From: a virus
Lineage: Duplodnaviria; Caudoviricetes
Virus record (IMG/VR): IMGVR_UViG_3300010376_000042
Coordinates: 1-53,606 of that record
Length of the DNA: 53,606 bases
Reading direction: 5' to 3' (one strand)
Positions 1 to 53,606 of the stretch are shown one piece after another (the first letter of the stretch is position 1; each line of letters begins with the position of its first letter). The position numbers and the translations under genes are program-made. The notes beneath the pieces are model-generated. The model saw only the letters and a list, made by a program, of their open reading frames with translations. It searched no databases and was not told the DNA's origin.

Positions 1-123
1 CTGGCTGGCACGTCGATTTGGCGATGAGGCACTCAACAAGGAACTGGACCAGATAGCCAACGAAATGCGCAGGGGGGCTAGTCGCATCTAATGGGCATCA
101 AGAACGACCTCATCAAGTCTGCC
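1..123. repeat. Terminal direct repeat, copy 1 (assembly circularisation overlap)
   Basis: Identical to 53484-53606; falls inside coding sequence (end of the TSCPD gene, start of dnaE). Confidence 0.95.
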
Positions 124-39155: not shown

Positions 39156-39157
39156 CA

Positions 39158-39786: not shown

Positions 39787-39802
39787 TGCGAAGCAAGTTA
39801 GA

Positions 39803-39831
39803 TTGACTTTCGTCGAAAAGTACGCTATAAT
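39803..39831 (+). promoter_or_regulatory. Near-consensus sigma70 promoter P3
   Basis: TTGACT-17 nt-TATAAT; ATG 9 nt downstream. Confidence 0.85.
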
Positions 39832-39840
39832 CACTCAGTC

Positions 39841-40702: not shown

Positions 40703-40959
40703 ACTACCCCGAAGCCGTACATAAGTGGTGGGAACTCAACAAGGGCAAGACGTTCAAGCGACCCAAAGGTCGTAAGACCTACACCGTGATGCCGGAGCAT
40801 GAACCACAGCCCATCAGCCCTGGCGGTGGCTATGGCTATGGCATTCGTTGCCTGCGCAAGCCAGAAGACCCGATCGGTGGCAACGAGCCGCTGATACCGT
40901 ACAACACCCTGCGCGCCATGGTCCTGGCCGACGACGAGGATCAGATAAAGATTTTCTAA
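40699..40959 (+). CDS. Hypothetical early protein
   Basis: 86 aa, ATGA coupling. Confidence 0.65.
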   Translation: MNYPEAVHKWWELNKGKTFKRPKGRKTYTVMPEHEPQPISPGGGYGYGIRCLRKPEDPIGGNEPLIPYNTLRAMVLADDEDQIKIF

Positions 40960-40962
40960 AGA

Positions 40963-40992
40963 TTGGATTTTCGCGAAGAATCGCGCTATAGT
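40963..40992 (+). promoter_or_regulatory. Leaderless promoter P4
   Basis: TTGGAT-18 nt-TATAGT; 26 bp identity with P2. Confidence 0.75.
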
Positions 40993-40999
40993 ATCTATC

Positions 41000-41128
41000 A
41001 TGAACACTACAACGAAATGCAAACACTGCTTCTGTAAAAGCAAGACTGTGGAGGTCGATGCCTATGGCACCGAAATCAAGCGTGTATTCTTCTGCTGTTG
41101 GTGCGAAGAGGAGCGTAAGAAATCATGA
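41000..41128 (+). CDS. 42 aa leaderless Cys-rich microprotein
   Basis: MNTTTKCKHCFCKSKTVEVDAYGTEIKRVFFCCWCEEERKKS; ATGA overlap with helicase. Confidence 0.65.
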   Translation: MNTTTKCKHCFCKSKTVEVDAYGTEIKRVFFCCWCEEERKKS

Positions 41129-43077
41129 ACTGCACGGCTGAGATAGGCGAAACTAACGCAGGCAAGCGCATCGAGGTCACGTTCCCCTACGATCCCAACG
41201 CTGTCAAGGCGATCAAGGCAGTACCTGGAGCGCGCTTTGTCCCCAAGGACAAGGGTGGCCCGCTGTGGCGGCTGCCGCTGGACCTGACTAGCGGTCGGCT
41301 ACTGCGCGAGGAGTTCAAAGATGGGCTGACGCTCGGACCCAAGCTGCGCAAGTGGGGCGTCATCGCGGTTCGCAAGGAGACCAACCTCAAGCACCTGAGT
41401 GTGGCGGACGACGCTGAGCTTCACGTCATACCCAAGCGCCTACCGCTTATTGCGCGCGCTATAGCGGGCGAGCCACTCGGAGACGTGCTTGACCTACCAC
41501 CAGGCCATATCCTGGCGGAGGAGCGCCCTGCGCGCCCGTTTCAGCGGGCCGATATAGCCTTCCTGGCGCAAACCGACGCCATCAACTCCAACGAGCCGGG
41601 TAGCGGCAAGACGCTAGAGTGCATCGCAGCAATCTTCGAGGCCGAATTGGACAACGGTCCACAGCTGGTGATCGCGCCTAAGACCAGTCTTGAAACCGTT
41701 TGGCAGACCGAACTGGAACGCTGGCAGCCGCACCCCGTCCTGCTCACTAGCGGTGACGACACCAAGAAGCGTCGCGAAGCCGTCATCGAGGAAGCGTGGC
41801 AACTGACCGGCGAAGGCAAATCATTCTTCCTGGTGATCAACCCGCACATGATCCGTATGGAGCGCGACCGCACAGCGCAGCCAATCAACGAAGGCGGCAA
41901 ACTGGTGCTGCCGTTGATCCCAGTCTACTCAGAGCTCTTCAACATCCCCTGGCAAGTGGTGATCGTTGATGAGTATCACAAGGCCGGTATGACCAACCCG
42001 CGCAGCCTGATGTATCGCAGCGTCAAGGAGTTGATGTACGAGAAGCTACTGCCGATGAGCGGCACGCCTATGGGTGGCAAGCCGTTGAAGCTGTGGGCGA
42101 TGCTGCACCTGCTCGACCCCGACCGCTTCACTAGCAAGTGGACCTGGGCTGGTGAGTGGCTGGAGATCAGCGAGCACGAATACGAAAAGGAAGGCACGGC
42201 GCAGGTCAGCCAGGTGATCGAAGGCATCCGCAAGGAGCGTGAGGCCGCGTTCTTCGAAGAGCACGCGCCGTACCTGCTCCGCCGCACCAAGGCTGAGGTG
42301 CTGCCGCAGCTACCGCCCAAGCAGCGGATGCGCATCGCCTGTAAGATGACGCCAGCGCAACGCAAACAGTACGAGAGCATCGCAGCCGATGCCGAGATCA
42401 AGATCGAGACTGAGCACCTGAGCATCACGTCGGTGCTGGCGGAATACACGCGACTCAAGCAGTTCAGCGATGCCAAGCAGACCATCAAGCGCATGGCCAA
42501 CGGCGAGTTGAAGCTGACGCCGACGACCGAGTCCGGCAAGCTGCCGAAGCTGCTGGAACTGCTAAGTGACCGTGGCATCACGGGCGACGATTCCGCCGAA
42601 GGCGACGAACAAGTTGTGGTGTTTTCCCAGTATTCAAGCGTGATTGACATGCTTGAGGAATGGCTCAATAGCCAGGGTATAGAGACCGCCAAGATCACCG
42701 GCGCAGTAGGTAGGAAGGGCGAGCGTACCCGGCTACAGGAACAGTTCCAGAGCGACGACGGACCGCGCGTGATGTTGATGACTACCGGAGCAGGCGGCGT
42801 ATCTATCAACCTGGACCGCGCGTCGACGGTCATATTCATGGACGAGACCTGGGACCCGGACGACCAAACGCAGGCTGAGGACAGGGTGCACCGCGCTAGC
42901 AGGATTCACCAGGTGATGGTGTACTACCTGTACAGCGAGGATAGTTTGGAGGAATACATCAACCGCGTGACCGCAGGTAAGAAGCTGACCAACGACCAGA
43001 TACTTGATGTCCATCGCATGATGATGGCCAAGGTGATCAAAGATGAAACCGCTGCACTCAGCACCCTTACGAAGTAA
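41125..43077 (+). CDS. SNF2-family (SF2) helicase/ATPase with N-terminal HARP-like domain
   Basis: EPGSGKT, VDEYH, SGTP, RRTK, VVFSQY, GVSINL, QAEDRVHR. Confidence 0.9.
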   Translation: MNCTAEIGETNAGKRIEVTFPYDPNAVKAIKAVPGARFVPKDKGGPLWRLPLDLTSGRLLREEFKDGLTLGPKLRKWGVIAVRKETNLKHLSVADDAELHVIPKRLPLIARAIAGEPLGDVLDLPPGHILAEERPARPFQRADIAFLAQTDAINSNEPGSGKTLECIAAIFEAELDNGPQLVIAPKTSLETVWQTELERWQPHPVLLTSGDDTKKRREAVIEEAWQLTGEGKSFFLVINPHMIRMERDRTAQPINEGGKLVLPLIPVYSELFNIPWQVVIVDEYHKAGMTNPRSLMYRSVKELMYEKLLPMSGTPMGGKPLKLWAMLHLLDPDRFTSKWTWAGEWLEISEHEYEKEGTAQVSQVIEGIRKEREAAFFEEHAPYLLRRTKAEVLPQLPPKQRMRIACKMTPAQRKQYESIAADAEIKIETEHLSITSVLAEYTRLKQFSDAKQTIKRMANGELKLTPTTESGKLPKLLELLSDRGITGDDSAEGDEQVVVFSQYSSVIDMLEEWLNSQGIETAKITGAVGRKGERTRLQEQFQSDDGPRVMLMTTGAGGVSINLDRASTVIFMDETWDPDDQTQAEDRVHRASRIHQVMVYYLYSEDSLEEYINRVTAGKKLTNDQILDVHRMMMAKVIKDETAALSTLTK

Positions 43078-43324
43078 GGGTGCTGGCCTGGTGGCCTACG
43101 CGAGCGCCTGCGCTAGCGCGCCCGATCCCCTATGCGCCCGAGGCGGTAGGTTGTTTAGTCGTCAGTTGTCACGCTCGTTCGCGCTACCCTCGATCGGGTA
43201 CGGGATCGCGTACTCGCGCGATCGGGAGTTGCAGCGCAGGGGTAGTGGCTGTGGCGGCTCGGGCGCGCGGGGGATCGGGAGGGCTGAGCAAGTTAGAAAC
43301 AAAGTTAGAACGCCAAGCGTGGCA

Positions 43325-43338
43325 AAGTACGCTACACT
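43325..43338 (+). promoter_or_regulatory. Promoter P5 (extended -10)
   Basis: AAGTACGC-TACACT, same upstream octamer as P1 and P3. Confidence 0.6.
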
Positions 43339-43343
43339 TGTGC

Positions 43344-43472
43344 GGCTGCTGGGCACCTCACCAATAGTGTTGGTAGCCGAGCAGCCTCCGGCCTTGCAGC
43401 TGGAGAGGCTCAGCAGCCACCCGCTGACCGCCGCCCTGCGCTCCCACACCGGAGCCGCAGGGCGGCGGAGCG
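43344..43472 (+). ncRNA. Candidate structured leader / small RNA
   Basis: Starts at the predicted P5 TSS; alternative 11 bp helices and a perfect 13 bp stem (43428-43440 with 43456-43468). Confidence 0.55.
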
Positions 43473-43529
43473 ACCGGCAAGGGGAGCCGTGGAGACCAAA
43501 TCTACAATCTACAGGAGAACTGCTGAGCC

Positions 43530-44678
43530 GTGGTTGCTGTTGCTGACCTCGACGTACCCCTGTTGCGCACAAGCGAGCGCACTGAGTGGAACCGCTGCCG
43601 GTGGGCGTGGGACAAGGCATACGTGCAGTGCATCAAGCCTGCGACAGCGTCGCCACCGCTGCGCTTTGGCACCCTGGTGCATCGCAGCTTGGAGCGCTAC
43701 TACAAGAAGGGCACCAAGCGCGGCACGCACCCTGCGCTGACCTTCGCCAAGCTGTACACGGCGGAGTTGCGCGAACAGGAAGCAATCGGCTTCCGCGATG
43801 AGGACGGCACCTGGAACGACGCCGCCACACTAGGCGAGGCGATGCTCAACGGCTACATTGAGCACTATGGCGCGGATGAGCGCTGGCAGGTGCTCGCCAC
43901 TGAGATGCCGTTCCAGGTGCCCGTGTATCATCCGCGTACCGGCAAGCTGTGGTTCTACTATGTCGGCATCATTGACTTGGTGATCAAGGATCGGGAGACA
44001 GACTTCGTGGGGTTGGTTGACCACAAGACTACGAAGGAAGACCCGACCAAGGTCGATTACCTCAACCTCGACGAGCAGGCCGGAGCGTACTGGCGTTATG
44101 GGCGGCAGGCGCTGTATGACTCCGGCCTGCTGAGGCAGGACCGCGAGTTGAACGGCATCATGTTCAACTTCCTGCTCAAGAAAATGCCCGATGACCGTCC
44201 GCAGAATGAGGAAGGCTACTACCTCAACCAGCCGTCTAAGGAAGCGCTGATTGAGTTTGCCGCTAGCTATTCAATGCGCGCCAAACCCAAGCCACGCTAC
44301 ACGGCGCAGGAACTCAAGAAGAAGACGGTGGCCGAACTGATCAAGCTTGTCGGCCCTGATAGGGCGGCGCAGTTGGGCGAGGTCAGCAAGAACCAGCCTG
44401 GGCCGCTGTTCTATCGCGCCCCGGTGTGGCGGAACGACGCCGAAGGTGACCATGTACACGAGCGTGTGTTGGAGCAGATGCGCGAGATGCAGCTAGCGCG
44501 GCGCGGCAAGCTAGCCAAGTACAAGGCACCTGGCAAGATGGTATGCGGTATGTGTGGCTTTCGTGACATGTGCGAACTGCATGAGAGCGGCACCGACTGG
44601 GAAAGTCTGCGCGACGCCACCATGCTGCCATGGGACCCGTATGAGGAGCACGAGATATACGCGGGGTCAACCTCATGA
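43530..44678 (+). CDS. PD-(D/E)XK exonuclease, Cas4/RecB-like
   Basis: RTSER..W.RC, FGTLVH, TEMPF, GIIDLV, VDHKT, Q...Y, CGMCGFRDMC. Confidence 0.88.
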   Translation: MVAVADLDVPLLRTSERTEWNRCRWAWDKAYVQCIKPATASPPLRFGTLVHRSLERYYKKGTKRGTHPALTFAKLYTAELREQEAIGFRDEDGTWNDAATLGEAMLNGYIEHYGADERWQVLATEMPFQVPVYHPRTGKLWFYYVGIIDLVIKDRETDFVGLVDHKTTKEDPTKVDYLNLDEQAGAYWRYGRQALYDSGLLRQDRELNGIMFNFLLKKMPDDRPQNEEGYYLNQPSKEALIEFAASYSMRAKPKPRYTAQELKKKTVAELIKLVGPDRAAQLGEVSKNQPGPLFYRAPVWRNDAEGDHVHERVLEQMREMQLARRGKLAKYKAPGKMVCGMCGFRDMCELHESGTDWESLRDATMLPWDPYEEHEIYAGSTS

Positions 44679-44893
44679 ACGATTCGAAGCAGGGGGGCAA
44701 GCCACACCAGACCGTAGGCGTGATGCAGATGGAACTGCATTGCGGATGCTGCCCGATGTGCGTGATGCGCAGCGGCGGCATGGCCCCATACATCACGATG
44801 GCCATGGTCGAGGCCAAGCAACTGCCCGACGGCAGCCTGATGGTCGACCCAACCCAGGAGCCGGAACCCGTAGGAATGTTGGTGATGAACTGA
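44675..44893 (+). CDS. Small Cys-containing hypothetical protein
   Basis: HCGCCPMC; ATGA coupling. Confidence 0.5.
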   Translation: MNDSKQGGKPHQTVGVMQMELHCGCCPMCVMRSGGMAPYITMAMVEAKQLPDGSLMVDPTQEPEPVGMLVMN

Positions 44894-45057
44894 TGCGTTG
44901 TGAGCAGAGCAGCGGTGAGGGATTCGACCTTGCCAATGACCAGGCTGCTCTGCTCAGAGCGCATCAGGTCCGTCGCCTCCGGCGCACTAGCGATAAGAGC
45001 GGTTGCCGTCCGTCTCGTCACACAGGTCAGAGATTCGGGCAAGCGCGCTCTCGGACC
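44890..45057 (+). ncRNA. Candidate structured RNA (two domains)
   Basis: 24 bp stem 44890-44913 with 44944-44967 (1 GU, 1 mismatch), then nested helices GTCCG/CGGAC, GAGCG/CGCTC, TTGCC/GGCAA, TCTC/GAGA. Confidence 0.55.
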
Positions 45058-45073
45058 CTAAACCGGAGGACAC

Positions 45074-45847
45074 ATGCCTAAGCACCCCGCAATCCGCAAG
45101 CTCACGCCGACAGGCAAGGCTAACCTGATGCTGTTCGGTCCCTACGGCTGCGGCAAGACGACGCTGATCGGCGAACACGCTAGCACGCTGATCGTGCGGC
45201 CACCTACGGATCACACCGACGCGGCGGTGCGCGCAGGCAGCAAGGCGGATGAGTGGGTGGTAGAGAAATGGGAGGACATGGATGAAGTTGAGGAGTTCGC
45301 CCGTCACAACCCCACCGAGTATGACTGGATCTGGCTGGACTCGATCTCGCTATTCCAGGATCATGGGCTGGAGGACATCATGGCGGCGGTTGAACTTGCC
45401 AAGCCGCACCGTAAGAACGGTCCCATAGACCAGGGCGAATACGCAGCCAACTTCAACCGGATCAAGAAGTGGTGCCGCCACATGGTGGGCATCCCCGGAT
45501 TCAACTTTGGCGTCACGGCCCATCCTGCGGAAATCGCAGACAACCTGGGCAACGTCAAGCTGCGCCCCTGGGTGCAGGGCAAGAACATGAGCTTCACGAT
45601 ATGCGGCATGATGAACATTGTCGCATACATGGAGGTCGTCCAACCCAAAGGCGACGGCAAGCCTCGCCGCGTACTGCGCCTAGCAGAAACGGACGACTAT
45701 GAGGCGAAGGACCAGCTACACATCGGCACGAATTTCCGCATGGTCGATCCGACCATGGCGAAGATTATGGCCGCTCTACCAAGCCAGCCGCGCAGCAGCG
45801 GCCGGACCACCAAGCGGCCACAGCGCCGCGTAGCAAGGAGGAAGTAG
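45074..45847 (+). CDS. AAA_24 / Sak4-like recombination ATPase
   Basis: GPYGCGKT, IWLDSIS, TAH, AKD; lies between exonuclease and SSB genes; GGAGG RBS. Confidence 0.85.
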   Translation: MPKHPAIRKLTPTGKANLMLFGPYGCGKTTLIGEHASTLIVRPPTDHTDAAVRAGSKADEWVVEKWEDMDEVEEFARHNPTEYDWIWLDSISLFQDHGLEDIMAAVELAKPHRKNGPIDQGEYAANFNRIKKWCRHMVGIPGFNFGVTAHPAEIADNLGNVKLRPWVQGKNMSFTICGMMNIVAYMEVVQPKGDGKPRRVLRLAETDDYEAKDQLHIGTNFRMVDPTMAKIMAALPSQPRSSGRTTKRPQRRVARRK

Positions 45848-45851
45848 CGCA

Positions 45852-46670
45852 GTGGCAAGAATCAAGTTCGACGTCAAGGGTGTAGCGCCAGCCCAAGACA
45901 CCAGCACGCCGATTCCAAAGGGCATGTACAAGTGCACCGTGGAGACGTGCTTGGTGGCCAAGCCGGAGGGTAAGGACCAGCGTATCGAGGTTGTCTACGT
46001 GATTGCCGATGGCGACCACAAGGGGCGCAAGCTCTTCGATTATCTCAACCTGGAGAGCGAACAGCCGTTCGCGCAGTCACGTGTGCGACAGTTCCTCGAA
46101 GCGTTCGGGATCGTGACCGCCAAGAAGGAGGCGGGTACGTTCGATCCGGAGAAGCTCGTCGGCGAGGACTGCAACGTGCGCGTTGCACACCAGACCGGGC
46201 AGGCGGGCACGCAGTGGGAGGGCCAGATCCAGTCTCGCGTCGGCGGCGTGTTCGCGCTCGGCGAGGACGAGGCTGAGGACGAGGACCTCGACGAGGACGA
46301 GGAGTCCGAGGATGAGGATGAGGGCGACGAGGACGAGGACGACGAGGATGAGGTAGACCTCGACGAGCTCGACCGCGCCGAGCTCAAGAAGCTCATCAAG
46401 GATGAGGAGCTCGGCATCAAAGTCACTAAGAGCATGTCCGACGACGACGTCCGTAAGGCGATCGCCGAGGCCATGGGTGGCGATGAGGACGAGGACGAGG
46501 GCGAGGATGATGAGGACGACGAGGAGGACGTCGACTACAACGACCTCGACCTGGATGCGCTCAAGGCAACCTGCAAGGAGCGCGGCTTGTCGGTGAAGGG
46601 CAGCAAGAAGATCCTCGTGGCGCGGCTCGAGAAGGATGACGAGTCGAGCGATGACGGAGATCCGTTCTAG
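45852..46670 (+). CDS. DUF669-type single-stranded DNA-binding protein with acidic tail and SAP-like domain
   Basis: PIPKGMY, HKGRKLFDYL; Asp/Glu runs; LKATCKERGLSVKGSKKILVARL; ends DPF. Confidence 0.8.
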   Translation: MARIKFDVKGVAPAQDTSTPIPKGMYKCTVETCLVAKPEGKDQRIEVVYVIADGDHKGRKLFDYLNLESEQPFAQSRVRQFLEAFGIVTAKKEAGTFDPEKLVGEDCNVRVAHQTGQAGTQWEGQIQSRVGGVFALGEDEAEDEDLDEDEESEDEDEGDEDEDDEDEVDLDELDRAELKKLIKDEELGIKVTKSMSDDDVRKAIAEAMGGDEDEDEGEDDEDDEEDVDYNDLDLDALKATCKERGLSVKGSKKILVARLEKDDESSDDGDPF

Positions 46671-46931
46671 ATGAGCGGAGACAGCGCACACCGGACGTCG
46701 GATATGACCTTGGTGGCTTACCTCGCCACTGTGGGCATCAACAATGCCAAGATGGAGCTCAGTGGCGACTTGGTCGTCTGGGTCCTTCCGGCGTCCGGGG
46801 CGCTGTCGCGTGAGCTAGCCAAGTACGAGCGCGGTGACTGCCGCGTCGAGCCTGGCAACCTCATGCGGCAGGTGGTACGCGTCCGCACGGCAATGTTCCA
46901 GTTCAAGGAACGCGCTCAGCGTGTGGCGTAG
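46671..46931 (+). CDS. Small protein, DUF5659-like
   Basis: TSDMTLVAYL motif. Confidence 0.5.
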   Translation: MSGDSAHRTSDMTLVAYLATVGINNAKMELSGDLVVWVLPASGALSRELAKYERGDCRVEPGNLMRQVVRVRTAMFQFKERAQRVA

Positions 46932-46936
46932 CACCG

Positions 46937-49756
46937 ATGCGCGCAGTCAAGAAGAGGCACCTAGAGCTACTACAACCATACCTAGTTGGCGAGCAACCTA
47001 CTACACGCGGTGAAGATGAGCATCTTGAGTGGGACATGTTCTGTCCCTTGCACGAAGACGAAGAGCGCAGCAGTGGCATCAACCTGGATGCTGGCGTGTG
47101 GTACTGCCAGGCGGGCTGTGGCGGCGGCAGGGTTGAGGACCTCATCGCCAGGCGTGATGAGTGGATTGAACCTACCGCTGCCGCCCGCGCAGCGCGCAGT
47201 AACGGCGGCAGCAAACGCAAGGGCAGTGCTGCGAAGGAGAAGCCTCCTACAGATGCCAATGTGGCCGGGTGGGTCAGTGCCCTGTGGTCCAACGAAGATG
47301 CCATGGAGGGTCTGATGTTGGCGCGCGGGCTGACAGAGGATACGATCCGCACATACGAACTTGGCTGGGACAGTGGACGCAACTGCTACAGCATCCCGGT
47401 GCGCGACAGCGACGGCAAGCTGCTGAACGTGCGGCGGTACACGCTCAACGCTGCACCAGGGCGCAGGAAGATGTGGAGCGTCAGCGGTATGGGCACGCCC
47501 ACGCTGTACCCCATGAGTGTATTCGCCAGCAACCCGCAGAGCGTGGTGATCTGCGAGGGCGAGCTAGATGCGTTGATATGTATCCAGAATGGTGTGCCCG
47601 CTATCACGCGCACCGGCAGCGCCACCACCTGGAAGAAGGAGTGGGGTGAGTGGTTCAACGAGAAGGTTGTGCTGATTTGCCACGACATGGACAGTGCAGG
47701 GCAGACCGCCAACCGCAAGGTGTCACGAGCGCTGGACCGCGCAGCCAAGGAGGTTCGCGTCATCAAGCTGCCCTACAAGGTGCTGCCGAAGCACGGCAAG
47801 GACCTGACAGACTTCTGGCTGGAACATGATCGCGAGGATTGGGAGAAACTGCTTAGCGAGCAGAGCACCGAGCTCCATGTGGGTGAGGTGAAGGAAGTTG
47901 CGCCCGGTGATGCGCAGGTAATCGACAGCTTCGACGCCAAGAACGTAGGCGTACCGCTGCGCCTGACCGTGACGATCCGGGGCAAGAGGGAGCCGGGGTA
48001 CAGCGTGGTGCGCGAGGCATCGCTGACGTGTACACGTGATGCAGGGGAGCGTTGCAACGTGTGCCCGCTGTACCCGGCTCAGGGCGAGGACCTGTTGATC
48101 GTGCAGCCCAATGATCCCGTGGTGCTAGAACTGATGGACAGCACGCGTGGCCAAGTGTCTGATATCCTACGTGCCGCATATGGCACGCCCAAGTGCAACA
48201 AGCTGATGGTCGAGCCACTGGAGCACCAGGCGGTAGAGATCCTATTCGCACGGCCGAGCGTGGACCACGCCAACGGCAGGAGCGAGGACTACAAGTCTAT
48301 CAAGATTACGTCGGTTGGCCGCCACAACACCGCGCCCAACACCACGGTACAGTTGACCGGCTCGCTGTACCCTGAGCCACGGCGGCAACTCAACGAGTTC
48401 CAGGCGTGGGAGCTAGCGCAGCTACAGACATCCATCGACAAGTTCGAAATGACGCCAGCGGTTGCCAAGATGCTGACGCGCTTTCAACCGCGAGCAGACG
48501 AACGACCGCTGAAGAAGCTAGGGAGGATCAGCCGTGAGTTGGCCACGCATGTCACTAAGATCTATGGTCGTCCTGAGCTTCATGCTGCCCTCGATCTTGT
48601 TTGGCACAGCGCTCTTGGCTTCGCGTTCGATGGCAACGCTATTGGTCGCGGCTGGCTGGAGCTTCTGGTGGTTGGGGATACTCGCACTGGTAAGAGCGAG
48701 GCGGCAACGCGGCTTGCGAAACACTATCGTGCAGGAGAGGTTGTATCGTGCGAGTCCGCATCCTTCGCGGGTATTGTTGGTGGTGCCCAGCAGTTTGGTT
48801 CACGGGGAGAGTGGGCGATCACATGGGGAGCAGTCCCACTCAACGATCGAAGACTCGTAGTATTGGACGAGATCAGTGGTCTCACCACGGAGGGCATCGC
48901 GGCTATGTCGTCGGTGCGCAGTAGCGGCACAGCGGAAATCACCAAGATACAACAAGAGCGTACCTATGCGCGCACGCGTCTGGTCTGGCTTGGAAACCCT
49001 CGGAACGCCAGGATGGGAGATTACACTTACGGTGTACAGGCTATACCGCCGCTCATTGGAAATCCTGAGGATATAGCGCGCTTTGATCTAGCCATGTGCG
49101 TGCGCGTGGGTGAGGTATCTTCCGACGAGATCAATCGCAGCCACGCGCAGGCAGGCGGTCGGCTGACCTACACGGCCGAGGCATGTAGCGCATTGGTGCG
49201 ATGGGTGTGGTCGCGCAAGCCTGAGCACGTCAAGTGGGCGCGCGGCGCGGAACAAGCCGTGTACGACGCAGCCAAGGGTTTGGGCGAGCGTTACGTGGAG
49301 GACCCACCGCTGGTGCAGGTTGCCAACGTTCGCATCAAGGTAGCGCGATTGGCGGTAGCTCTGGCCGCGCGCCTGTTCAGCACAGACGCCAAGCACGAGT
49401 GCATCGTGGTGAAGAAGGAACATGTTGAGGACGCTGTGGCGTTCTTGGATCGGCTGTACAACATGCCGAGCTTCGGCTATGCAGAGCGCAGCCGTGAAGC
49501 GTTGCAGGACGCCGCCGATGCACAGGCGCAATATGACGAGGTCAAGGGTTATCTGCGCACGCAGAGCGGTCTGGCTAAGTTCCTGCGCAACGCGGGCACA
49601 TTCCGGCGGCAGGACCTTGAGGAGATCTTGAACATCAGCCGCGAGGAAGCCAACGCGGTGATCAACCAGTTGTGGGCCAGCAGGATGGTCCGCAAGGAAC
49701 GCGGCGACGTGAGGATCCTCCCGGCGCTGCATACGCTACTGAGGGAAGTCCAATGA
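46937..49756 (+). CDS. Primase-helicase fusion: CHC2 zinc finger, TOPRIM primase and MCM-family AAA+ helicase
   Basis: CPLH..CQAGC; ICEGELD, HDMD, KDLTDF; VVGDTRTGKS, LVVLDEI, ARTRLVWLGNP, IARFDL. Confidence 0.88.
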   Translation: MRAVKKRHLELLQPYLVGEQPTTRGEDEHLEWDMFCPLHEDEERSSGINLDAGVWYCQAGCGGGRVEDLIARRDEWIEPTAAARAARSNGGSKRKGSAAKEKPPTDANVAGWVSALWSNEDAMEGLMLARGLTEDTIRTYELGWDSGRNCYSIPVRDSDGKLLNVRRYTLNAAPGRRKMWSVSGMGTPTLYPMSVFASNPQSVVICEGELDALICIQNGVPAITRTGSATTWKKEWGEWFNEKVVLICHDMDSAGQTANRKVSRALDRAAKEVRVIKLPYKVLPKHGKDLTDFWLEHDREDWEKLLSEQSTELHVGEVKEVAPGDAQVIDSFDAKNVGVPLRLTVTIRGKREPGYSVVREASLTCTRDAGERCNVCPLYPAQGEDLLIVQPNDPVVLELMDSTRGQVSDILRAAYGTPKCNKLMVEPLEHQAVEILFARPSVDHANGRSEDYKSIKITSVGRHNTAPNTTVQLTGSLYPEPRRQLNEFQAWELAQLQTSIDKFEMTPAVAKMLTRFQPRADERPLKKLGRISRELATHVTKIYGRPELHAALDLVWHSALGFAFDGNAIGRGWLELLVVGDTRTGKSEAATRLAKHYRAGEVVSCESASFAGIVGGAQQFGSRGEWAITWGAVPLNDRRLVVLDEISGLTTEGIAAMSSVRSSGTAEITKIQQERTYARTRLVWLGNPRNARMGDYTYGVQAIPPLIGNPEDIARFDLAMCVRVGEVSSDEINRSHAQAGGRLTYTAEACSALVRWVWSRKPEHVKWARGAEQAVYDAAKGLGERYVEDPPLVQVANVRIKVARLAVALAARLFSTDAKHECIVVKKEHVEDAVAFLDRLYNMPSFGYAERSREALQDAADAQAQYDEVKGYLRTQSGLAKFLRNAGTFRRQDLEEILNISREEANAVINQLWASRMVRKERGDVRILPALHTLLREVQ

Positions 49757-49965: not shown

Positions 49966-50227
49966 GAATCTGACGCAGGCTGAGGAGGCGCTAAGGCGTA
50001 CCTACCTGCATGTGCCAGGTGAGCAGGCGCACGAGCGCGTGATGCGACGGGCTGGCGTCGACACAGAGGCAATGCAACGATTCATGCAGCATCACAAGGA
50101 CACGTTGTTCAAGCACTACCTACCGGACATCGACCCTCGGGACGAGCCGGCAATCATGACCATGATGCTGCACATGTTCGCCGTTGGCGCCGTGGCGCAG
50201 CGCTTCTCAGATGGGAGGCCCAGCTAA
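49940..50227 (+). CDS. Hypothetical protein
   Basis: 95 aa, TAATG coupling downstream. Confidence 0.6.
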   Translation: MPRQTITAENLTQAEEALRRTYLHVPGEQAHERVMRRAGVDTEAMQRFMQHHKDTLFKHYLPDIDPRDEPAIMTMMLHMFAVGAVAQRFSDGRPS

Positions 50228-50622
50228 TGCTGAGCGTACAGCGGGACGTAGAAGCGTTCCACATGAAGTTCGACCACCCTGCCGGTGGCAAGATCAAACT
50301 GCGCATGCGCAAGCTGCGTCGCAGGCTGATCAAGGAGGAGGCCAAGGAGCTCTGCAAGGCGCTCAAGCGGCGCGACGAGGTAGAGGTCATCGACGGCATC
50401 TGCGATCTGATGTATGTGACCGTCGGCACGGCGGTCGCCATGGGCATCGACCTGGAGCCGTTCTGGGAGCAGGTGCAGGCAGCCAACATGGCCAAGGAGG
50501 GCGGCGGCAAGCGTGGCGACGGGAAGGTGCTACGGCCCGAGGGCTGGGTCGCACCGGACATCGCTGGCATACTGTCCGAGCAGCGTGCGGCACGTGACGC
50601 CAGTCTGGAGGTTGCGGCATGA
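50227..50622 (+). CDS. MazG-like / PRA-PH all-alpha NTP pyrophosphohydrolase
   Basis: VEAFH..F, LIKEEAKEL, DGICDLMYV, NMAK, GKVLRPEGW..PDI. Confidence 0.88.
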   Translation: MLSVQRDVEAFHMKFDHPAGGKIKLRMRKLRRRLIKEEAKELCKALKRRDEVEVIDGICDLMYVTVGTAVAMGIDLEPFWEQVQAANMAKEGGGKRGDGKVLRPEGWVAPDIAGILSEQRAARDASLEVAA

Positions 50623-51089
50623 GCAACTTCCTAGTCATTCAGGGTTGCCCTTGTAACCCGATGATAGCGCCGTACTTCGCGCTACTGGTGAAAGAGGTTG
50701 GCGCTGAGGTCAACTCGCTGTACCGGGGCGAGGACGCAGCGGCCATCCTGCATCACTATGGCAAGCACACGCAAGCCGAGCTCTACCGCGAGCTACCGCC
50801 CGGCACGGCCAATCCACCTGGGCGGTCTACGCATGAGCTACGCAGCGATGCGGTAGCGTACCCAGGGCCGCTTGGTCGCCACCTTGAATGGTGGCAGCAG
50901 GGTATCGACGTCAACGACAGCGACGTCGCGAACATGGAGCGCGCTGCCAGGCGGCATGGTTGGGAGTTGTTCCAGCCGTACCGCGCGGGCGTCGAGTTCC
51001 ACCACCTCAACTTCCGGTTCAGGCCGAAGGCTCGTGGGCGTGACCGCCTGCGCATCATCGCCTTGCGCCGGACCCTACCGAGGCACTAG
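50619..51089 (+). CDS. M15-family zinc peptidase (D-Ala-D-Ala carboxypeptidase-like)
   Basis: NSLYR, QAELY, ANPPGRSTHE, GIDV, EFHH. Confidence 0.75.
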   Translation: MSNFLVIQGCPCNPMIAPYFALLVKEVGAEVNSLYRGEDAAAILHHYGKHTQAELYRELPPGTANPPGRSTHELRSDAVAYPGPLGRHLEWWQQGIDVNDSDVANMERAARRHGWELFQPYRAGVEFHHLNFRFRPKARGRDRLRIIALRRTLPRH

Positions 51090-51090
51090 C

Positions 51091-51333
51091 ATGATGGGGC
51101 TCAAGTTCAAGTACACCAACTGGCGTGGCAACGATCACGAGTATGTGATTAGTCCGGAAAGGGGTGGCCTGGAACAGTACACAGCCACTATGACTGGGCG
51201 CGATGGCGCTGCCTGGATGGTGTCTGGCGATGTAGTAACTCGCGATGGTGATGTACGTGAGGGCATGGGCGACAACCGCAGGCGCTCATTCGAGTTGATC
51301 AAGATGCGCGACATCGAGGAAGTTGAGGTATGA
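51091..51333 (+). CDS. Stand-alone WYL-like domain protein
   Basis: FKYTNWRG....ISP...WMVSG...RRSFELIKM. Confidence 0.6.
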   Translation: MMGLKFKYTNWRGNDHEYVISPERGGLEQYTATMTGRDGAAWMVSGDVVTRDGDVREGMGDNRRRSFELIKMRDIEEVEV

Positions 51334-52085
51334 CGGGCAAGGTTGCCATCCTGGGGTGCGGGCCAGCGGGGTTGCTGGCCACGCACGCCGCCCAGCTAAT
51401 GCACATCAACCCCAAGGTGTTCGCCATCAAGAAACCGAGCGTGATCAACGGTGCGCAGTTCATACACGACAGCATCCATGGACTAGACCTTGGCGCTGCG
51501 CAGCCGGTGGACTTTCGCAAGGTGGGCGACAAGGCAGGCTACGCATTCAAGGTGTACGGTAGCCGCGACGCCGAGTGCTCGTGGGACTTGTTCCCGTCGG
51601 GCGAGCTACCGGCGTGGCCGATGCACGGTGTGTACGACACGCTGTGGTCGCTGTACGAAGAGCTAGTGACTGACTGTCGGTTGTTCCCCAGTGACATCCG
51701 CACGCTGGAAAGTGAGTATGACTTGGTGATCAGCACGATCCCGCGCATGACCATATGCCAGCGCAAGCACGACTTCCGCAGTCAGCGTGTGTTGTTCTCC
51801 AACCGCGCAGCGTTCCGCACGACGGGCAACTTCATCGAGTACAACGGTGAGGTGGACGTGCCCTACTACCGCACCAGCCGGTTGTTCGGGTACGGTAGCA
51901 CCGAGTTCGGTGAGCACCACAAGCTGCACGTGCCCGCCGACATGCAGGCTGGCGTGAAGCCGCTCGGCACCAACTGCGACTGCCACCCCAAAGTAGTGTT
52001 CGTAGGCAGGTTCGGCAAGTGGCAGAAGGGTGTCCTAGTCCACCATGCGTTCCAGGAGGCATTCGATGCGTTGCAGCAGTTGTAG
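51330..52085 (+). CDS. FAD-dependent oxidoreductase/mutase, UDP-galactopyranose mutase (Glf)-like
   Basis: VAILGCGPAG Rossmann motif, GAQFIH, YDLVISTIP, VPYYR, FVGRFGKW. Confidence 0.7.
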   Translation: MTGKVAILGCGPAGLLATHAAQLMHINPKVFAIKKPSVINGAQFIHDSIHGLDLGAAQPVDFRKVGDKAGYAFKVYGSRDAECSWDLFPSGELPAWPMHGVYDTLWSLYEELVTDCRLFPSDIRTLESEYDLVISTIPRMTICQRKHDFRSQRVLFSNRAAFRTTGNFIEYNGEVDVPYYRTSRLFGYGSTEFGEHHKLHVPADMQAGVKPLGTNCDCHPKVVFVGRFGKWQKGVLVHHAFQEAFDALQQL

Positions 52086-52734
52086 CAAGGTGGTCAAGCC
52101 CATCGTCGCCATAGACATCGACGGTACGCTGGGCGATTACCACGGGCACCTGATCAACTTCGCCTGCTCATATCTAGGGCGCGGCTCGCGGGCACATATG
52201 TTCACGACTTACGATGGCACCGAACATTTCCGGGATTGGTTCTGCCGTATCTTCGAGACGGACTACGCCACGTTTCGTGCGATCAAGCTGGCCTACCGAC
52301 AGGGCGGCAACAAGCGCAGCATGCCCGTTGACGAGCACGCAATGCCATTCGTACACCACACTCGCGAGGAACTGGGCGCGGAGCTATGGCTCACCACCAC
52401 GCGTCCATATCTGCGCTTGGACAACGTAGATCCGGACACACGCTTTTGGCTGGAGCGTCACGGCATCAAGTTCGACGGCATGCTGTATGACGAGGACAAG
52501 TATGCGGTGCTGGCCGAACACGTAGACCGCGAGCGCGTCGTGGCGGTGCTAGATGACTTGCCGGAGCAGTACGACGCAGCCAAGCATGAGTTCGGCGGCC
52601 ACGTGCCGATCCTGCGTCGTAACCTGTACAACCGTGGCGTGCCGCGCCAGCGCACAGCTGAAGACTTGATCGCTGCGGGCGCAATGATAGAGCAGGCCAT
52701 CAACGACTGGAGGCAAGTCCATGGAAGTAATTGA
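52066..52734 (+). CDS. HAD-superfamily phosphatase (deoxynucleotidase-like)
   Basis: AIDIDGTL, TTRP, K, VLDD; AGGAGG RBS. Confidence 0.82.
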   Translation: MRCSSCSKVVKPIVAIDIDGTLGDYHGHLINFACSYLGRGSRAHMFTTYDGTEHFRDWFCRIFETDYATFRAIKLAYRQGGNKRSMPVDEHAMPFVHHTREELGAELWLTTTRPYLRLDNVDPDTRFWLERHGIKFDGMLYDEDKYAVLAEHVDRERVVAVLDDLPEQYDAAKHEFGGHVPILRRNLYNRGVPRQRTAEDLIAAGAMIEQAINDWRQVHGSN

Positions 52735-53125
52735 GAAGGGCAGCAATATTGAGATCGCGATCGATACGCTGCTCGACGTGCTGGGGGTGCCAACCGATGA
52801 CACCTACCGCGAACAGATGGTCGTGTTCTGCCGGGCGGTGCGCAAGAACGCTGAGCGGGAAGCGCAGTACAAAGGGCTATGGCAGCAAGACACTATCGGT
52901 GAGATAGCTGGCATGGCTGCGCATAAGGCCAAGCGCATGGGCCAGCACGAAGCCAACATGCGGGGTCCGTTCGTTGACGACCCGGAGATAGCTGCCGAGG
53001 GAGAGCATGAGCAGCAGATCTACGACAACGCCATGGACGACGCGATAGACCTCGTCAACTACGGCGCATTCACGGCGCGGCTAGTCGACGCCAGCAGCCA
53101 AGCCAACCGGAAACGGCCAGCATGA
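52721..53125 (+). CDS. All-alpha nucleotide pyrophosphohydrolase-like protein (Nmad1/DUF1599-like)
   Basis: ER...Y...W, K.KR, DDAIDLVNY.AF. Confidence 0.6.
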   Translation: MEVIEKGSNIEIAIDTLLDVLGVPTDDTYREQMVVFCRAVRKNAEREAQYKGLWQQDTIGEIAGMAAHKAKRMGQHEANMRGPFVDDPEIAAEGEHEQQIYDNAMDDAIDLVNYGAFTARLVDASSQANRKRPA

Positions 53126-53574
53126 GCAACCACGCTGAGGACACGATGGAGGGTCAGGTCGGTGACAACCGCCGCAAGCTGCCGCGTGATCGCACCGGCC
53201 CGACCATCAAGGTGCACGTGGGCGATGCCGAGTGGTACATCACGGCCAACGCTTTCGAGACCGGCGAGCTAGGGGAGATATTCTTCCATGGCTTCGGCAA
53301 GGAGGGCAGCACGCTGGAGGGTTGGTCGCAGGCATTCGCGTGCATGACTAGCATCGCTATTCAGTACGGTGCTGAGTTGCCAATGCTGGCGCGCAAGTTC
53401 GCGCACATGAAGTTCGAGCCCAACGGCCCCACCAACAACGAGGACATACCGTGGTGCAGCAGCGTGGTTGACTTCACGTTCCGCTGGCTGGCACGTCGAT
53501 TTGGCGATGAGGCACTCAACAAGGAACTGGACCAGATAGCCAACGAAATGCGCAGGGGGGCTAGTCGCATCTAA
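53122..53574 (+). CDS. Stand-alone TSCPD domain (C-terminal module of class II ribonucleotide reductase NrdJ)
   Basis: RRKLPRDR.G.T, YITAN, GEIF, KEGSTL, SIAIQYG, FEPNG, SSVVDF.FRWL. Confidence 0.82.
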   Translation: MSNHAEDTMEGQVGDNRRKLPRDRTGPTIKVHVGDAEWYITANAFETGELGEIFFHGFGKEGSTLEGWSQAFACMTSIAIQYGAELPMLARKFAHMKFEPNGPTNNEDIPWCSSVVDFTFRWLARRFGDEALNKELDQIANEMRRGASRI

Positions 53575-53606
53575 TGGGCATCAAGAACGACCTCATCAAG
53601 TCTGCC
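53484..53606. repeat. Terminal direct repeat, copy 2
   Basis: Identical to 1-123. Confidence 0.95.

What the first reader, a model, noticed from the sequence alone, without database searches (positions are those of the whole stretch)
50227..53574. Candidate uncharacterised DNA base-modification pathway continuing across the join into dnaE and a divergent thyX
Seen: one tightly coupled run of MazG-like pyrophosphatase, (M15, WYL-like), Glf-like FAD enzyme, HAD phosphatase, Nmad1-like pyrophosphatase and TSCPD, then dnaE (TAATG overlap) and a ThyX homolog. Established: phages that substitute a base typically pair a thymidylate-synthase homolog with pyrophosphatases or phosphatases that remove the canonical dNTP, plus their own polymerase; Glf enzymes interconvert NDP-pyranose and NDP-furanose. 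Inference: the cassette makes a non-canonical, possibly sugar-bearing pyrimidine nucleotide that the phage DnaE incorporates. No glycosyltransferase or dNMP kinase was recognised in the genome, so any chemistry would differ from T4-style post-replicative glucosylation. Similar gene sets may exist unannotated in other DnaE-encoding actinophages; I could not check.
Basis: partly seen in the sequence, partly recalled or inferred. Interest (0 to 1): 0.82.

Follow-up and report, generated by a model that had tools for sequence, protein, structure and literature searches.

The report
Conserved flavoenzyme–nucleotidase cassette beside phage DnaE
A tightly packed run of nucleotide-handling genes next to this phage's own DNA polymerase is real and is conserved in hundreds of related phages, but nothing yet shows that it makes an unusual DNA base rather than simply supplying thymidine.

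Summary
The window is a complete phage record whose ends repeat 123 bases, and one co-directional, overlapping gene run crosses that join. All nine domain guesses got support. MazG/HisE-like, TSCPD, DnaE and ThyX are firm. HAD is firm from motifs and from NT5C matches in homologs. Glf-like is a fold-level match only. Nmad1-, M15- and WYL-like are leads.

Only part of the run is conserved. In 86 related loci the core is an FAD oxidoreductase (D), an NT5C-type HAD phosphatase (E), an Nmad1-like helical protein (F), DnaE and a long ThyX homolog. MazG, M15, WYL and TSCPD are sporadic extras.

D is almost phage-only. It lacks Glf's helical domain and any Glf sequence match. The genome has no glycosyltransferase, so the sugar idea has no support.

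The "divergent" ThyX motif is not special to these phages. It is shared with Pseudomonas PB1-like and E. coli ECML-117 phages, which also carry DnaE-type polymerases and D-like, F-like or accessory relatives.

Best reading (0.42): a multi-part, phage-type thymidylate and dNMP-pool unit that feeds DnaE. A non-canonical pyrimidine remains possible (about 0.28). It can be tested directly on cultured actinophages.

The parts
50227..50622 (+). A: MazG/HisE-type all-alpha NTP pyrophosphohydrolase (131 aa). Sporadic accessory gene.
   Evidence: Pfam PRA-PH 1.6e-17. phrog_671 1.7e-33. EEAKE...EVID acidic motif. Relatives in only 3/53 related loci.
50619..51089 (+). B: M15/VanY-like small protein (156 aa). 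A lead only; not conserved in relatives.
   Evidence: No Pfam, PHROG, NCBIfam or PDB sequence hit. Atlas features 0.93 to VanY clusters; structure TM 0.5-0.69. No homolog in the 86 loci.
51091..51333 (+). C: WYL-like small beta protein (80 aa). A lead only; not conserved in relatives.
   Evidence: Atlas features 0.86 (WYL clusters); structure TM by query 0.62-0.67 to WYL domains. No homolog in the 86 loci.
51330..52085 (+). D: 251-aa FAD/NAD(P)-binding oxidoreductase of the two-domain flavoprotein fold. Core gene, almost confined to phages.
   Evidence: GCGPAG motif. 414 homologs of about 250 aa. phrog_8720. Model pLDDT 95.9. Foldseek top hit UGM, E 4e-9. 126 actinophage records, nearly all of those listed annotating it 'oxidoreductase'. 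Only 4 hits in genome contigs, all on MAG contigs.
52045..52734 (+). E: HAD phosphatase nearest to 5'(3')-deoxyribonucleotidases (NT5C). Probable start at 52066. Core gene.
   Evidence: Invariant D24, D26, G27, T28, K152 and D171, with T118/T119 nearly invariant. phrog_415 2.2e-11. Homologs PBI1 gp59 and Sadboi gp71 hit Pfam NT5C at 1.5e-7 and 1.6e-4. Profile best PDB hit 2jao deoxyribonucleotidase, E 0.16, not significant. Present in 67/79 loci.
52721..53125 (+). F: four-helix Nmad1/DUF1599-like protein (134 aa). Core gene. No canonical pyrophosphatase acid motif.
   Evidence: 3 close and 67 profile-level relatives. 3/47 members hit PF07659, best 2.5e-4. An L048 homolog hits it at 0.0024. Model pLDDT 91.9. 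No significant PDB fold match; top is DCTPP1 at E 0.49. Invariants W54, K69, R72. Present in 68/74 loci.
53122..53574 (+). G: stand-alone TSCPD domain protein resembling the C-terminal part of class II ribonucleotide reductase. Sporadic accessory gene.
   Evidence: Pfam TSCPD 1.9e-7. NF005122 positions 735-869, 2.3e-33. No RNR large-subunit core in the genome. Present in 2/59 loci.
91..3444 (+). DnaE-type replicative polymerase (1117 aa). Its ATG shares one base with the TSCPD stop (TAATG), seen at 53574 and again at 91.
   Evidence: Pfam PHP, DNA_pol3_alpha and finger domains. 40-45% identity to actinophage DnaE. 36-38% identity to the PB1-like and ECML-117 polymerases. Present in 59/59 loci.
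3452..4480 (+). Long phage-type ThyX homolog (342 aa) with an R-Q-R motif and a four-Cys C-terminal cluster. Core gene.
   Evidence: Pfam Thy1 5.2e-32. TIGR02170 75.8 against cut-off 87.9. Alignment to T. maritima ThyX. Family conservation. Comparison with canonical and PB1-type ThyX.
1..123 (.). Terminal repeat, identical to 53484-53606. It holds the 3' end of the TSCPD gene and the start of dnaE.
   Evidence: IMG/VR class 'direct terminal repeats'.
41125..49756 (+). Upstream half of the same conserved replication module: Snf2-type helicase (41125-43077), PD-(D/E)XK/Cas4 nuclease (43530-44678), AAA_24 Sak4-like ATPase (45074-45847), DUF669+SAP protein (45852-46670) and Toprim/MCM primase-helicase (46937-49756).
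   Evidence: Pfam. Same order in related loci. Among loci with enough upstream flank, p272 is in 73/73, recA-like in 71/71, Cas4 in 61/61 and primase in 54/78.

Best explanation
The run is the downstream half of a conserved phage replication module. Its conserved core is a multi-part, phage-type thymidylate and deoxypyrimidine-pool unit that feeds the phage's own DnaE polymerase.

Shown:
- The long ThyX homolog keeps the residues that, in T. maritima ThyX, bind dUMP and flavin.
- An FAD-binding oxidoreductase (D), a HAD phosphatase of the deoxyribonucleotidase type (E) and an Nmad1-like helical protein (F) travel with it and with DnaE across very divergent phages.

Inferred:
- ThyX-like puts a one-carbon unit on dUMP.
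- D is a second flavoenzyme in the same pathway. It might be a flavin reductase or a one-carbon supplier for a ThyX that has lost the histidines and tyrosine of canonical enzymes.
- E trims an unwanted dNMP.
- The MazG-like enzyme, which is specific to this lineage, turns an unwanted or precursor dNTP into its dNMP.
- F binds a nucleotide or acts as a scaffold.
- The end product is ordinary dTTP, and the virion DNA is canonical.

M15-like, WYL-like and TSCPD are lineage-specific passengers.
For: 1. Conserved order. Helicase, Cas4, Sak4-like, DUF669, primase, D, E, F, variable genes, DnaE, ThyX-like appear in this order in 80 IMG/VR loci and 6 cultured actinophage loci, at only 33-45% D identity. 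E is in 67/79 loci, F in 68/74, E and F together in 57/74, DnaE in 59/59 and ThyX-like in 49/53.

2. Matching counts in cultured phages. D is found in Gordonia 46, Microbacterium 36, Mycobacterium 32, Streptomyces 9, Arthrobacter 2 and Nocardia 1 records. The ThyX-like protein is found in Gordonia 46, Microbacterium 36 and Mycobacterium 28 records at E<=1e-10.

3. Rearranged but still adjacent. In Microbacterium phage Anakin the D gene overlaps the ThyX-like start by 4 nt and F follows.

4. ThyX-like family of 57 sequences. R160, R162, S170, R172, R222, R249 and Q157 are invariant. They align to T. maritima R78, R80, S88, R90, R147, R174 and Q75.

5. The same ThyX variant lies beside DnaE-type polymerases in PB1-like and ECML-117 phages.
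- PB1-like phages have a D-like protein (hhalign 90.4%, E 1.4e-6; BFVD hit to Pseudomonas phage PA5, E 1.5e-9).
- They also have an F-like domain (hhalign 82.4%, E 1e-5).
- ECML-117 has the SDR, T58-like and T59-like accessory genes.
- No paper in my searches reports modified DNA in these groups.

6. The genome has no ThyA, trimeric dUTPase, dCMP deaminase, RNR core or thymidylate kinase. The cassette is therefore its only recognisable nucleotide metabolism.
Against: - A plain dTMP supply does not obviously need an extra FAD enzyme, a deoxyribonucleotidase and, in other lineages, a short-chain reductase (29/59), a SAM methyltransferase (13/59) or a T4 endonuclease V-like glycosylase (29/83). 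That kind of variable enzyme set around a fixed core is typical of modification pathways.
- The only family link for F is 'nucleotide modification associated domain 1'.
- The ThyX-like family never has the His of the RHR motif (Q/S/T in 57/57). It also has L for T. maritima H53 (56/57), Q for E86 (57/57) and A or F for Y91 (57/57). Ordinary catalysis is therefore not assured.
- No biochemical or nucleoside data exist for any member in the papers I could search.
- The conserved order could be inherited rather than functional, because all the loci share one replication module.
Confidence: 0.42

Rival explanations
1. Non-canonical pyrimidine pathway. The ThyX-like enzyme makes the exocyclic-methylene dUMP intermediate, but it is captured or processed further instead of being reduced to dTMP. 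D would do this, with the SDR and methyltransferase in other lineages. E (a dNMP phosphatase) and the MazG-like enzyme remove the canonical competitor, and DnaE incorporates the product.
For: - Variable accessory enzymes (SDR 29/59, SAM methyltransferase 13/59, Pyr_excise-like 29/83) sit around a fixed D/E/F core.
- E is nearest to NT5C deoxyribonucleotidases. Recalled, not from a call: phages that exclude thymine induce dTMP nucleotidases and dTTPases.
- F links weakly to Nmad1.
- The ThyX motif is systematically altered and there is an invariant four-Cys cluster.
- An FAD-dependent lyase acting on a modified thymidine has a precedent in PaMx11 gp47 (PMC8989533, passages read).
- D is almost confined to phages.
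Against: - No modified base is reported for more than 120 cultured, sequenced relatives in the papers searched.
- The same ThyX variant, with D-like and F-like proteins, occurs in PB1-like phages that are not known to be modified.
- No thymidylate-kinase-type dNMP kinase was found in the genome to activate a new dNMP.
- No ThyA-type hydroxymethylase is present.
Confidence: 0.28
2. Linkage by inheritance only. D, E and F have jobs unrelated to ThyX and DnaE, such as cofactor handling, DNA-end repair by a PNK-like 3'-phosphatase, or counter-defence. They sit there because the whole replication module is inherited as a block.
For: - All 86 loci share the same upstream helicase, Cas4, Sak4-like, DUF669 and primase genes, so the loci are not independent.
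- E also matches the PHROG family named polynucleotide kinase (2.2e-11).
- F has no catalytic signature.
Against: - The order is kept at 33-45% protein identity.
- D stays next to ThyX-like after rearrangement in Anakin.
- D-like and F-like proteins reappear next to ThyX and DnaE in Pseudomonas phages that have a different upstream module.
Confidence: 0.22
3. Sugar-bearing base. D acts like Glf on an NDP-sugar and the product decorates a pyrimidine nucleotide.
For: - UDP-galactopyranose mutases are the top PDB fold hits for D (E 4e-9).
- One relative, TinyMiny, has a glycosyltransferase after DnaE.
Against: - D is 251 aa against 367 for E. coli Glf. TM by target is only 0.35-0.40 with rmsd 8-9 A, and other flavoenzymes score within 10-fold.
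- hhalign to E. coli Glf covers only the 42-column FAD motif, probability 1.4%.
- There is no Pfam GLF hit.
- No GT1 or GT2 is in this genome.
- The TinyMiny glycosyltransferase has no homolog in the other 86 loci.
Confidence: 0.05

Closest known systems
[quoted passage not shown] PBI1 gp58-65, Sadboi gp70-83)
   Same: D, E, F, DnaE and ThyX-like are homologous and in the same order, behind the same helicase, Cas4 and RecA-like genes. Cluster lists come from the Xenia2 announcement (PMC11385102, whole text read) and from PMC10893344 (passage read).
   Different: The window lacks the SAM methyltransferase and the SDR. It has a MazG-like gene upstream plus M15-like, WYL-like and TSCPD genes that those phages lack. 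No pathway or function is proposed in those papers; they only give product names.
Flavin-dependent thymidylate synthase ThyX (T. maritima, PDB 1o26 series; Pfam PF02511, TIGR02170)
   Same: Pfam Thy1 5.2e-32. The arginines, Ser and Gln that align to R78, R80, S88, R90, R147, R174 and Q75 are invariant in the family.
   Different: - Below the TIGR02170 cut-off.
- R-[Q/S/T]-R instead of RHR, and H for R74, L for H53, Q for E86, A or F for Y91.
- About 100 extra residues and four invariant Cys.
- Canonical viral ThyX (phiCP13O, ARV1) keep RHR.
- The T. maritima numbering comes from subtracting a recalled 12-residue tag from the chain numbering.
ThyX-DnaE modules of Pseudomonas PB1-like phages (Pbunavirus) and E. 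coli phage ECML-117 (Wifcevirus)
   Same: - The same ThyX variant (THQ..R-T-R, C-terminal Cys).
- DnaE-type polymerase 36-38% identical to the window's.
- D-like and F-like proteins in the PB1-like phage.
- SDR, T58-like and T59-like genes in ECML-117.
   Different: No E-type HAD was found with my profiles in those two loci. The upstream genes differ. The D-like protein is longer (333 aa) and matches over the N-terminal half only.
UDP-galactopyranose mutase (Glf)
   Same: FAD-binding two-domain fold. It is the best Foldseek PDB hit.
   Different: No helical substrate domain, no sequence-level match beyond the dinucleotide-binding motif, and no sugar-pathway partners in this genome.
Pre-replicative base-replacement pathways of phages (T4 hmC, SPO1/phi-e hmU, PBS2 uracil, Z-genome PurZ/MazZ/DatZ). 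Recalled, not from a call.
   Same: A thymidylate-synthase-superfamily enzyme plus an NTP pyrophosphatase plus a dNMP phosphatase, next to a phage polymerase.
   Different: Known cases use ThyA-family or PurZ enzymes, and none uses a ThyX homolog. Here there is no ThyA, no dNMP kinase found and no evidence of a modified base.

Membership tests
UDP-galactopyranose mutase (Glf) | Sequence membership (Pfam GLF, or a profile match beyond the FAD motif) | tested here: not met
   No Pfam hit for D. The D profile against PDB matches only the N-terminal 30-50 residues of many flavoenzymes. hhalign against E. coli K-12 Glf: 42 columns, probability 1.4%.
UDP-galactopyranose mutase (Glf) | Three-domain architecture of about 370-400 aa with a helical substrate-binding domain (architecture recalled) | tested here: not met
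   D is 251 aa and family members are about 250 aa. The model has an FAD domain plus a beta-sheet only. TM by target is 0.35-0.40.
UDP-galactopyranose mutase (Glf) | Closest fold among solved structures | tested here: inconclusive
   UGM ranks first (E 4e-9), but VioD, D-amino-acid oxidase and indole or styrene monooxygenases lie within about 10-fold, and rmsd is 8-9 A.
HAD phosphatase, NT5C 5'(3')-deoxyribonucleotidase type | HAD motifs I-IV (DxDxT, T/S, K, D/DD) | tested here: met
   D24, D26, G27, T28, K152 and D171 are invariant, and T118/T119 nearly invariant, in 37 sequences.
HAD phosphatase, NT5C 5'(3')-deoxyribonucleotidase type | Match to Pfam NT5C above its cut-off | tested here: inconclusive
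   The window protein has no Pfam hit. Homolog PBI1 gp59 scores 31.9 bits against cut-off 24.8, and Sadboi gp71 scores 22.0 bits, below it. The family profile's best PDB hit is 2jao deoxyribonucleotidase at E 0.16. It also hits PHROG 'polynucleotide kinase' at 2.2e-11.
HAD phosphatase, NT5C 5'(3')-deoxyribonucleotidase type | dNMP substrate specificity | not testable with these tools
   Needs an enzyme assay.
Nmad1 / DUF1599 (PF07659) | Pfam match | tested here: inconclusive
   The window F has no hit. 3 of 47 profile-found relatives hit, best 2.5e-4. An L048 homolog scores 18.6 bits against cut-off 25 while covering model positions 1-61 of 61.
All-alpha NTP pyrophosphatase (MazG/HisE/dCTPase), applied to F | Acidic metal-binding motif (ExxE...ExxD; recalled) and the fold | tested here: not met
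   F family invariants are W54, K69 and R72; only D110 is a nearly invariant acid. Foldseek gives nothing at E<=0.001; the best is DCTPP1 at E 0.49, TM 0.33.
All-alpha NTP pyrophosphatase (MazG/HisE), applied to A | Pfam match above cut-off and the acidic motif | tested here: met
   PRA-PH 64.2 bits against cut-off 21.3. EEAKE and EVID visible.
ThyX flavin-dependent thymidylate synthase | Pfam Thy1 domain | tested here: met
   111.6 bits against cut-off 24.8.
ThyX flavin-dependent thymidylate synthase | Equivalog-level score (TIGR02170) | tested here: not met
   75.8 bits against cut-off 87.9.
ThyX flavin-dependent thymidylate synthase | ThyX motif RHRxxSxxxxSxR (motif recalled; seen in phiCP13O and ARV1) | tested here: not met
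   The window has RQRTAVYAQESLR. In the family the His position is Q, S or T in 57/57, and the first Ser position is mostly A, V or G. The second Ser and the three Arg are invariant.
ThyX flavin-dependent thymidylate synthase | dTMP synthase activity | not testable with these tools
   Needs complementation or an enzyme assay.
TSCPD domain | Pfam match above cut-off | tested here: met
   31.7 bits against cut-off 22.8. It aligns to positions 735-869 of the NrdJ model NF005122. No RNR core is in the genome.
Pre-replicative base-replacement system | Enzyme that makes the new dNMP, enzymes that remove the canonical nucleotide, a kinase for the new dNMP, and a modified base in virion DNA | tested here: inconclusive
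   Candidate maker (ThyX-like, D) and removers (A, E) are present. No Thymidylate_kin and no ThyA. The base composition of virion DNA is not testable here.

The most novel reading that the evidence does not exclude
A ThyX-family enzyme, working with a phage-only mini-flavoprotein (D), makes a 5-substituted dUMP rather than dTMP. E and the MazG-like enzyme clear the canonical competitor, and the phage DnaE builds the product into DNA. One possible route is capture or further oxidation of the exocyclic-methylene intermediate. That would parallel the tRNA route in which MnmEG, the MnmC oxidase and the MnmC methyltransferase act in turn, with the methyltransferase and SDR of sister lineages tailoring the group. 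This would be the first DNA base modification built on the flavin-dependent (ThyX) branch. It would be present in hundreds of actinophages and perhaps in PB1-like phages.
Probability: 0.27. Interest if true: 0.88.

Novelty: new variant of a known kind. Interest (0 to 1): 0.6.

Why it matters
The D/E/F, DnaE and ThyX-like set is large. D relatives were found in 259 IMG/VR loci, 126 cultured actinophage records and 414 protein clusters, and more distant versions occur in PB1-like Pseudomonas phages and an E. coli phage.

It contains three phage-borne proteins with no known role (D, F and the T58/T59 families). It also contains a ThyX clade that lacks residues conserved in the studied enzymes.

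Either outcome would be new. One is that phage-type ThyX needs dedicated partner proteins. The other is that the set makes a new DNA base.

Many members are cultured on safe laboratory hosts (M. smegmatis, Gordonia, Microbacterium), so a nucleoside LC-MS run and a thyA complementation test would settle it quickly.

Tried and rejected
- Complex prediction of the ThyX-like protein (alignment A5) with D (alignment A1): no verdict, score 0.00 in two runs. This is not evidence either way.
- The paper I recalled as defining the Nmad domains was not held under the DOI or PMC id I tried. What I say about Nmad1 beyond the Pfam title is therefore recall. One literature search was rejected for a malformed term.
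- Searches for 'Nmad1'+phage, 'DUF1599' and 'TSCPD'+phage gave nothing relevant.
- phmmer of B against PDB gave 0 hits. D alone, and the D profile, against PDB gave only Rossmann-motif matches.
- The F model against PDB gave nothing significant.
- Pfam and PHROG scans of 20 ORFs in 4545-12358 and 37836-46931, plus PHROG scans of 10 ORFs in 4545-12358, found no kinase, glycosyltransferase or other nucleotide enzyme.
- The extra domains of long F fusions (5 tested) have no Pfam match.
- hhalign of the D profile against ECML-117 gp80 was weak (probability 22.7%). I do not count it as a D homolog.
- JG024, a PB1-like phage, has DNA that SacII cuts (PMC3008698, passages). The SacII site as I recall it has no A or T, so this says nothing about thymine.
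- A first version of the neighbourhood script timed out and was rerun in lighter steps.
- Supplementary files of papers were not consulted.

Full report
**What is there**

The window is a complete IMG/VR virus record. Bases 1-123 repeat 53484-53606 exactly, so the gene run really does continue across the join.

From 49940 to 4480 (through the join) ten + strand ORFs are packed with overlaps of 1-20 nt or gaps of 1-7 nt. This includes the TAATG stop/start between the TSCPD gene and dnaE.

**Check of each domain guess**

- A (50227-50622) is a MazG/HisE-type pyrophosphohydrolase. Pfam PRA-PH is 1.6e-17, phrog_671 is 1.7e-33, and the acidic motifs are visible.
- B (50619-51089) has no hit in Pfam, PHROGs, NCBIfam or PDB sequences. 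The protein atlas puts it with VanY/M15 clusters at 0.93. This is a lead.
- C (51091-51333) resembles WYL domains at lead level only (0.86, TM 0.62-0.67).
- D (51330-52085) starts with a GCGPAG dinucleotide-binding motif.
- E (52045-52734) has the HAD motifs.
- G (53122-53574) is a TSCPD domain. It aligns to the C-terminal part of class II ribonucleotide reductase models, but the genome has no reductase core.
- DnaE (91-3444) and the ThyX homolog (3452-4480) are clear Pfam matches.

**D, the "Glf-like" enzyme**

D has 414 relatives, all about 250 aa and none of them named. In cultured actinophages nearly all of the listed records annotate it "oxidoreductase" (126 records in total).

A model built on 60 sequences is confident (pLDDT 95.9). 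Its best PDB fold matches are UDP-galactopyranose mutases (E 4e-9). However, TM by query is only 0.5-0.56, TM by target is 0.35-0.40 and rmsd is 8-9 A. VioD, D-amino-acid oxidase and indole or styrene monooxygenases score within about ten-fold.

At sequence level only the FAD motif matches anything. hhalign against E. coli K-12 Glf aligns 42 N-terminal columns at 1.4% probability.

D is therefore a minimal two-domain flavoprotein.

D is almost confined to phages. A scan of one genome for each of 185,579 species found 4 relatives, all on metagenome-assembled contigs.

**E and F**

- E's homologs in PBI1 (gp59) and Sadboi (gp71) hit Pfam NT5C, the 5'(3')-deoxyribonucleotidase family, at 1.5e-7 and 1.6e-4.
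- The E family profile's best PDB match is mouse deoxyribonucleotidase 2jao, but it is not significant (E 0.16).
- E also hits a PHROG family named polynucleotide kinase.
- F has only three close relatives. A profile search found 67 representatives, and 3 of the 47 I scanned hit DUF1599 ("nucleotide modification associated domain 1") weakly. One longer homolog does too.
- F's model is a confident helical bundle with no significant PDB match. The non-significant top hits are dCTP pyrophosphatases.
- F lacks a conserved acidic metal site, so "pyrophosphatase" is not supported for F.

**Conservation**

Using the D alignment I fetched the best 80 of 259 IMG/VR loci and six cultured actinophage loci. 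I then searched their ORFs with iterated profiles.

The order Snf2 helicase, Cas4 nuclease, Sak4-like ATPase, DUF669 protein, primase, D, E, F, variable genes, DnaE, ThyX-like recurs throughout. The upstream genes were named by Pfam.

Counts below exclude the window and include only loci with enough flank.

| Gene | Loci with it / loci examined |
|---|---|
| E | 67/79 |
| F | 68/74 |
| E and F together | 57/74 |
| DnaE | 59/59 |
| ThyX-like | 49/53 |
| SDR | 29/59 |
| SAM methyltransferase | 13/59 |
| T58 family | 10/59 |
| T4 endonuclease V-like glycosylase (Pfam Pyr_excise 1.7e-17) | 29/83 |
| MazG-like | 3/53 |
| TSCPD | 2/59 |

- B and C have no homolog in any of the loci.
- F is the same family as PBI1 gp61, Sadboi gp73, Terapin gp62 and part of Gibson gp53.
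- Genus counts match in cultured phages. D: Gordonia 46, Microbacterium 36, Mycobacterium 32. ThyX-like at E<=1e-10: 46, 36 and 28. E is in 83 records.
- In Microbacterium phage Anakin the order is glycosylase, D, ThyX-like, F, one ORF, DnaE. D and ThyX-like overlap by 4 nt.

These loci all share one replication module, so they are not independent samples.

**The ThyX homolog**

Aligned to T. maritima ThyX, the family of 57 sequences keeps R160, R162, S170, R172, R222, R249 and Q157. These correspond to R78, R80, S88, R90, R147, R174 and Q75. That numbering uses a recalled 12-residue tag offset.

The family differs from T. maritima at several positions:

| T. maritima residue | ThyX-like family |
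|---|---|
| H79 | Q, S or T in 57/57 |
| R74 | H in 57/57 |
| H53 | L in 56/57 |
| E86 | Q in 57/57 |
| Y91 | A or F in 57/57 |

It also has four invariant cysteines.

This variant is not peculiar to D/E/F phages. ThyX of a PB1-like Pseudomonas phage and of E. coli phage ECML-117 has the same THQ..R-T-R motif and C-terminal cysteines. Clostridium phage phiCP13O and Acidianus virus ARV1 keep RHR.

Those two phages also carry other parts of the set:
- Both have DnaE-type polymerases 36-38% identical to the window's.
- The PB1-like locus has a D-like protein (hhalign 90.4%, E 1.4e-6). A BFVD hit to a Pseudomonas phage PA5 protein supports this (E 1.5e-9).
- It also has a protein with an F-like C-terminal domain (82.4%, E 1e-5).
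- ECML-117 has the SDR, T58-like and T59-like genes between ThyX and its polymerase.

**Rest of the genome**

There is no GT1 or GT2 glycosyltransferase, thymidylate kinase, ThyA, trimeric dUTPase, dCMP deaminase or RNR core. No other nucleotide enzyme turned up among the early-region ORFs I scanned.

**Literature**

Two papers list these products in actinophages without proposing a pathway: PMC11385102 (whole text read) and PMC10893344 (passage read).

Searches for the gene combination, for Nmad1/DUF1599, for TSCPD in phages, for mycobacteriophage hypermodification and for ThyX-based modification found no functional study. Supplements were not available.

**Reading**

The conserved core most likely works as one deoxypyrimidine unit around a phage-type ThyX that feeds DnaE. 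I put 0.42 on ordinary dTMP as the product, with D, E and F as partners or pool trimmers.

- The main reason for that reading is that the same ThyX variant, with D-like and F-like proteins, occurs in PB1-like phages, and no paper in my searches reports modified DNA in that group or in the actinophages.
- I put about 0.28 on a non-canonical pyrimidine. The reasons are the variable tailoring enzymes, the deoxyribonucleotidase-type phosphatase, the Nmad1 link and the altered ThyX site.
- Inheritance without functional coupling gets 0.22.
- The sugar version gets 0.05.

**Verdict**

This is a widely conserved, uncharacterised variant of known phage nucleotide-pool modules. It is worth a direct nucleoside analysis on cultured relatives.

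Noticed in passing
L098 (Escherichia phage ECML-117, NC_025441.1) 5998-12561: An E. coli phage carries ThyX, gp77 (T59-like C-terminus, 2.3e-27), a FabG-like SDR (1e-47), a T58-like protein (7.3e-31), gp74 and a DnaE-type polymerase. This is the same accessory set as in Microbacterium phage TinyMiny-type loci.
   Followed up: partly
L099 (Pseudomonas phage phi9_PA11) 3782-4783 and 7111-8127: A PB1-like phage has a 333-aa D-like protein upstream of ThyX, and a 338-aa protein whose C-terminus carries the F-family motif (DsAlDsINYsAF) between ThyX and the exonuclease/DnaE genes.
   Followed up: partly
L004 12223-12810 (Terapin gp64) and 29 of 83 related loci; absent from the window: A T4 endonuclease V-like pyrimidine-dimer DNA glycosylase (Pfam Pyr_excise 1.7e-17) sits just upstream of D, or between F and DnaE, in many relatives.
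   Followed up: partly
L001, L004, L006, L092 (TinyMiny, Terapin, Aikoy, Anakin): DnaE is annotated as two ORFs (about 320-345 aa and about 750-810 aa), separated by a small ORF in three of the four phages and adjacent in Anakin. In the window, PBI1, Gibson and Sadboi it is one ORF.
   Followed up: no
L027 and L032 (IMGVR_UViG_3300046533_000294, 129,757 bases): One IMG/VR contig holds the whole cassette twice, about 65 kb apart, with the same gene order. This may be a concatemer assembly of a 65-kb genome.
   Followed up: no
window 52045-52110; alignment A4: The E family consensus begins MMxCxxC, just before the HAD motif I. The window has MRCSSC. This is a possible small metal or redox motif that I did not examine further.
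   Followed up: no
window 45852-46670: The 272-aa protein after the Sak4-like ATPase is DUF669 plus a C-terminal SAP domain. Its Terapin homolog (gp58) is annotated 'methyltransferase', which the Pfam result does not support.
   Followed up: partly
public actinophage records under: Homologs of E carry many different product names: phosphatase, hydrolase, deoxyribonucleotidase, 5' nucleotidase, nucleotidase, nucleotide pyrophosphohydrolase, exonuclease and 'phosphostase'. Annotation of this family is inconsistent.
   Followed up: no
window 37836-38750: A 304-aa protein with DUF2786 (1e-13) and a weak DUF7168 match lies at the start of the early region. Function unknown.
   Followed up: no
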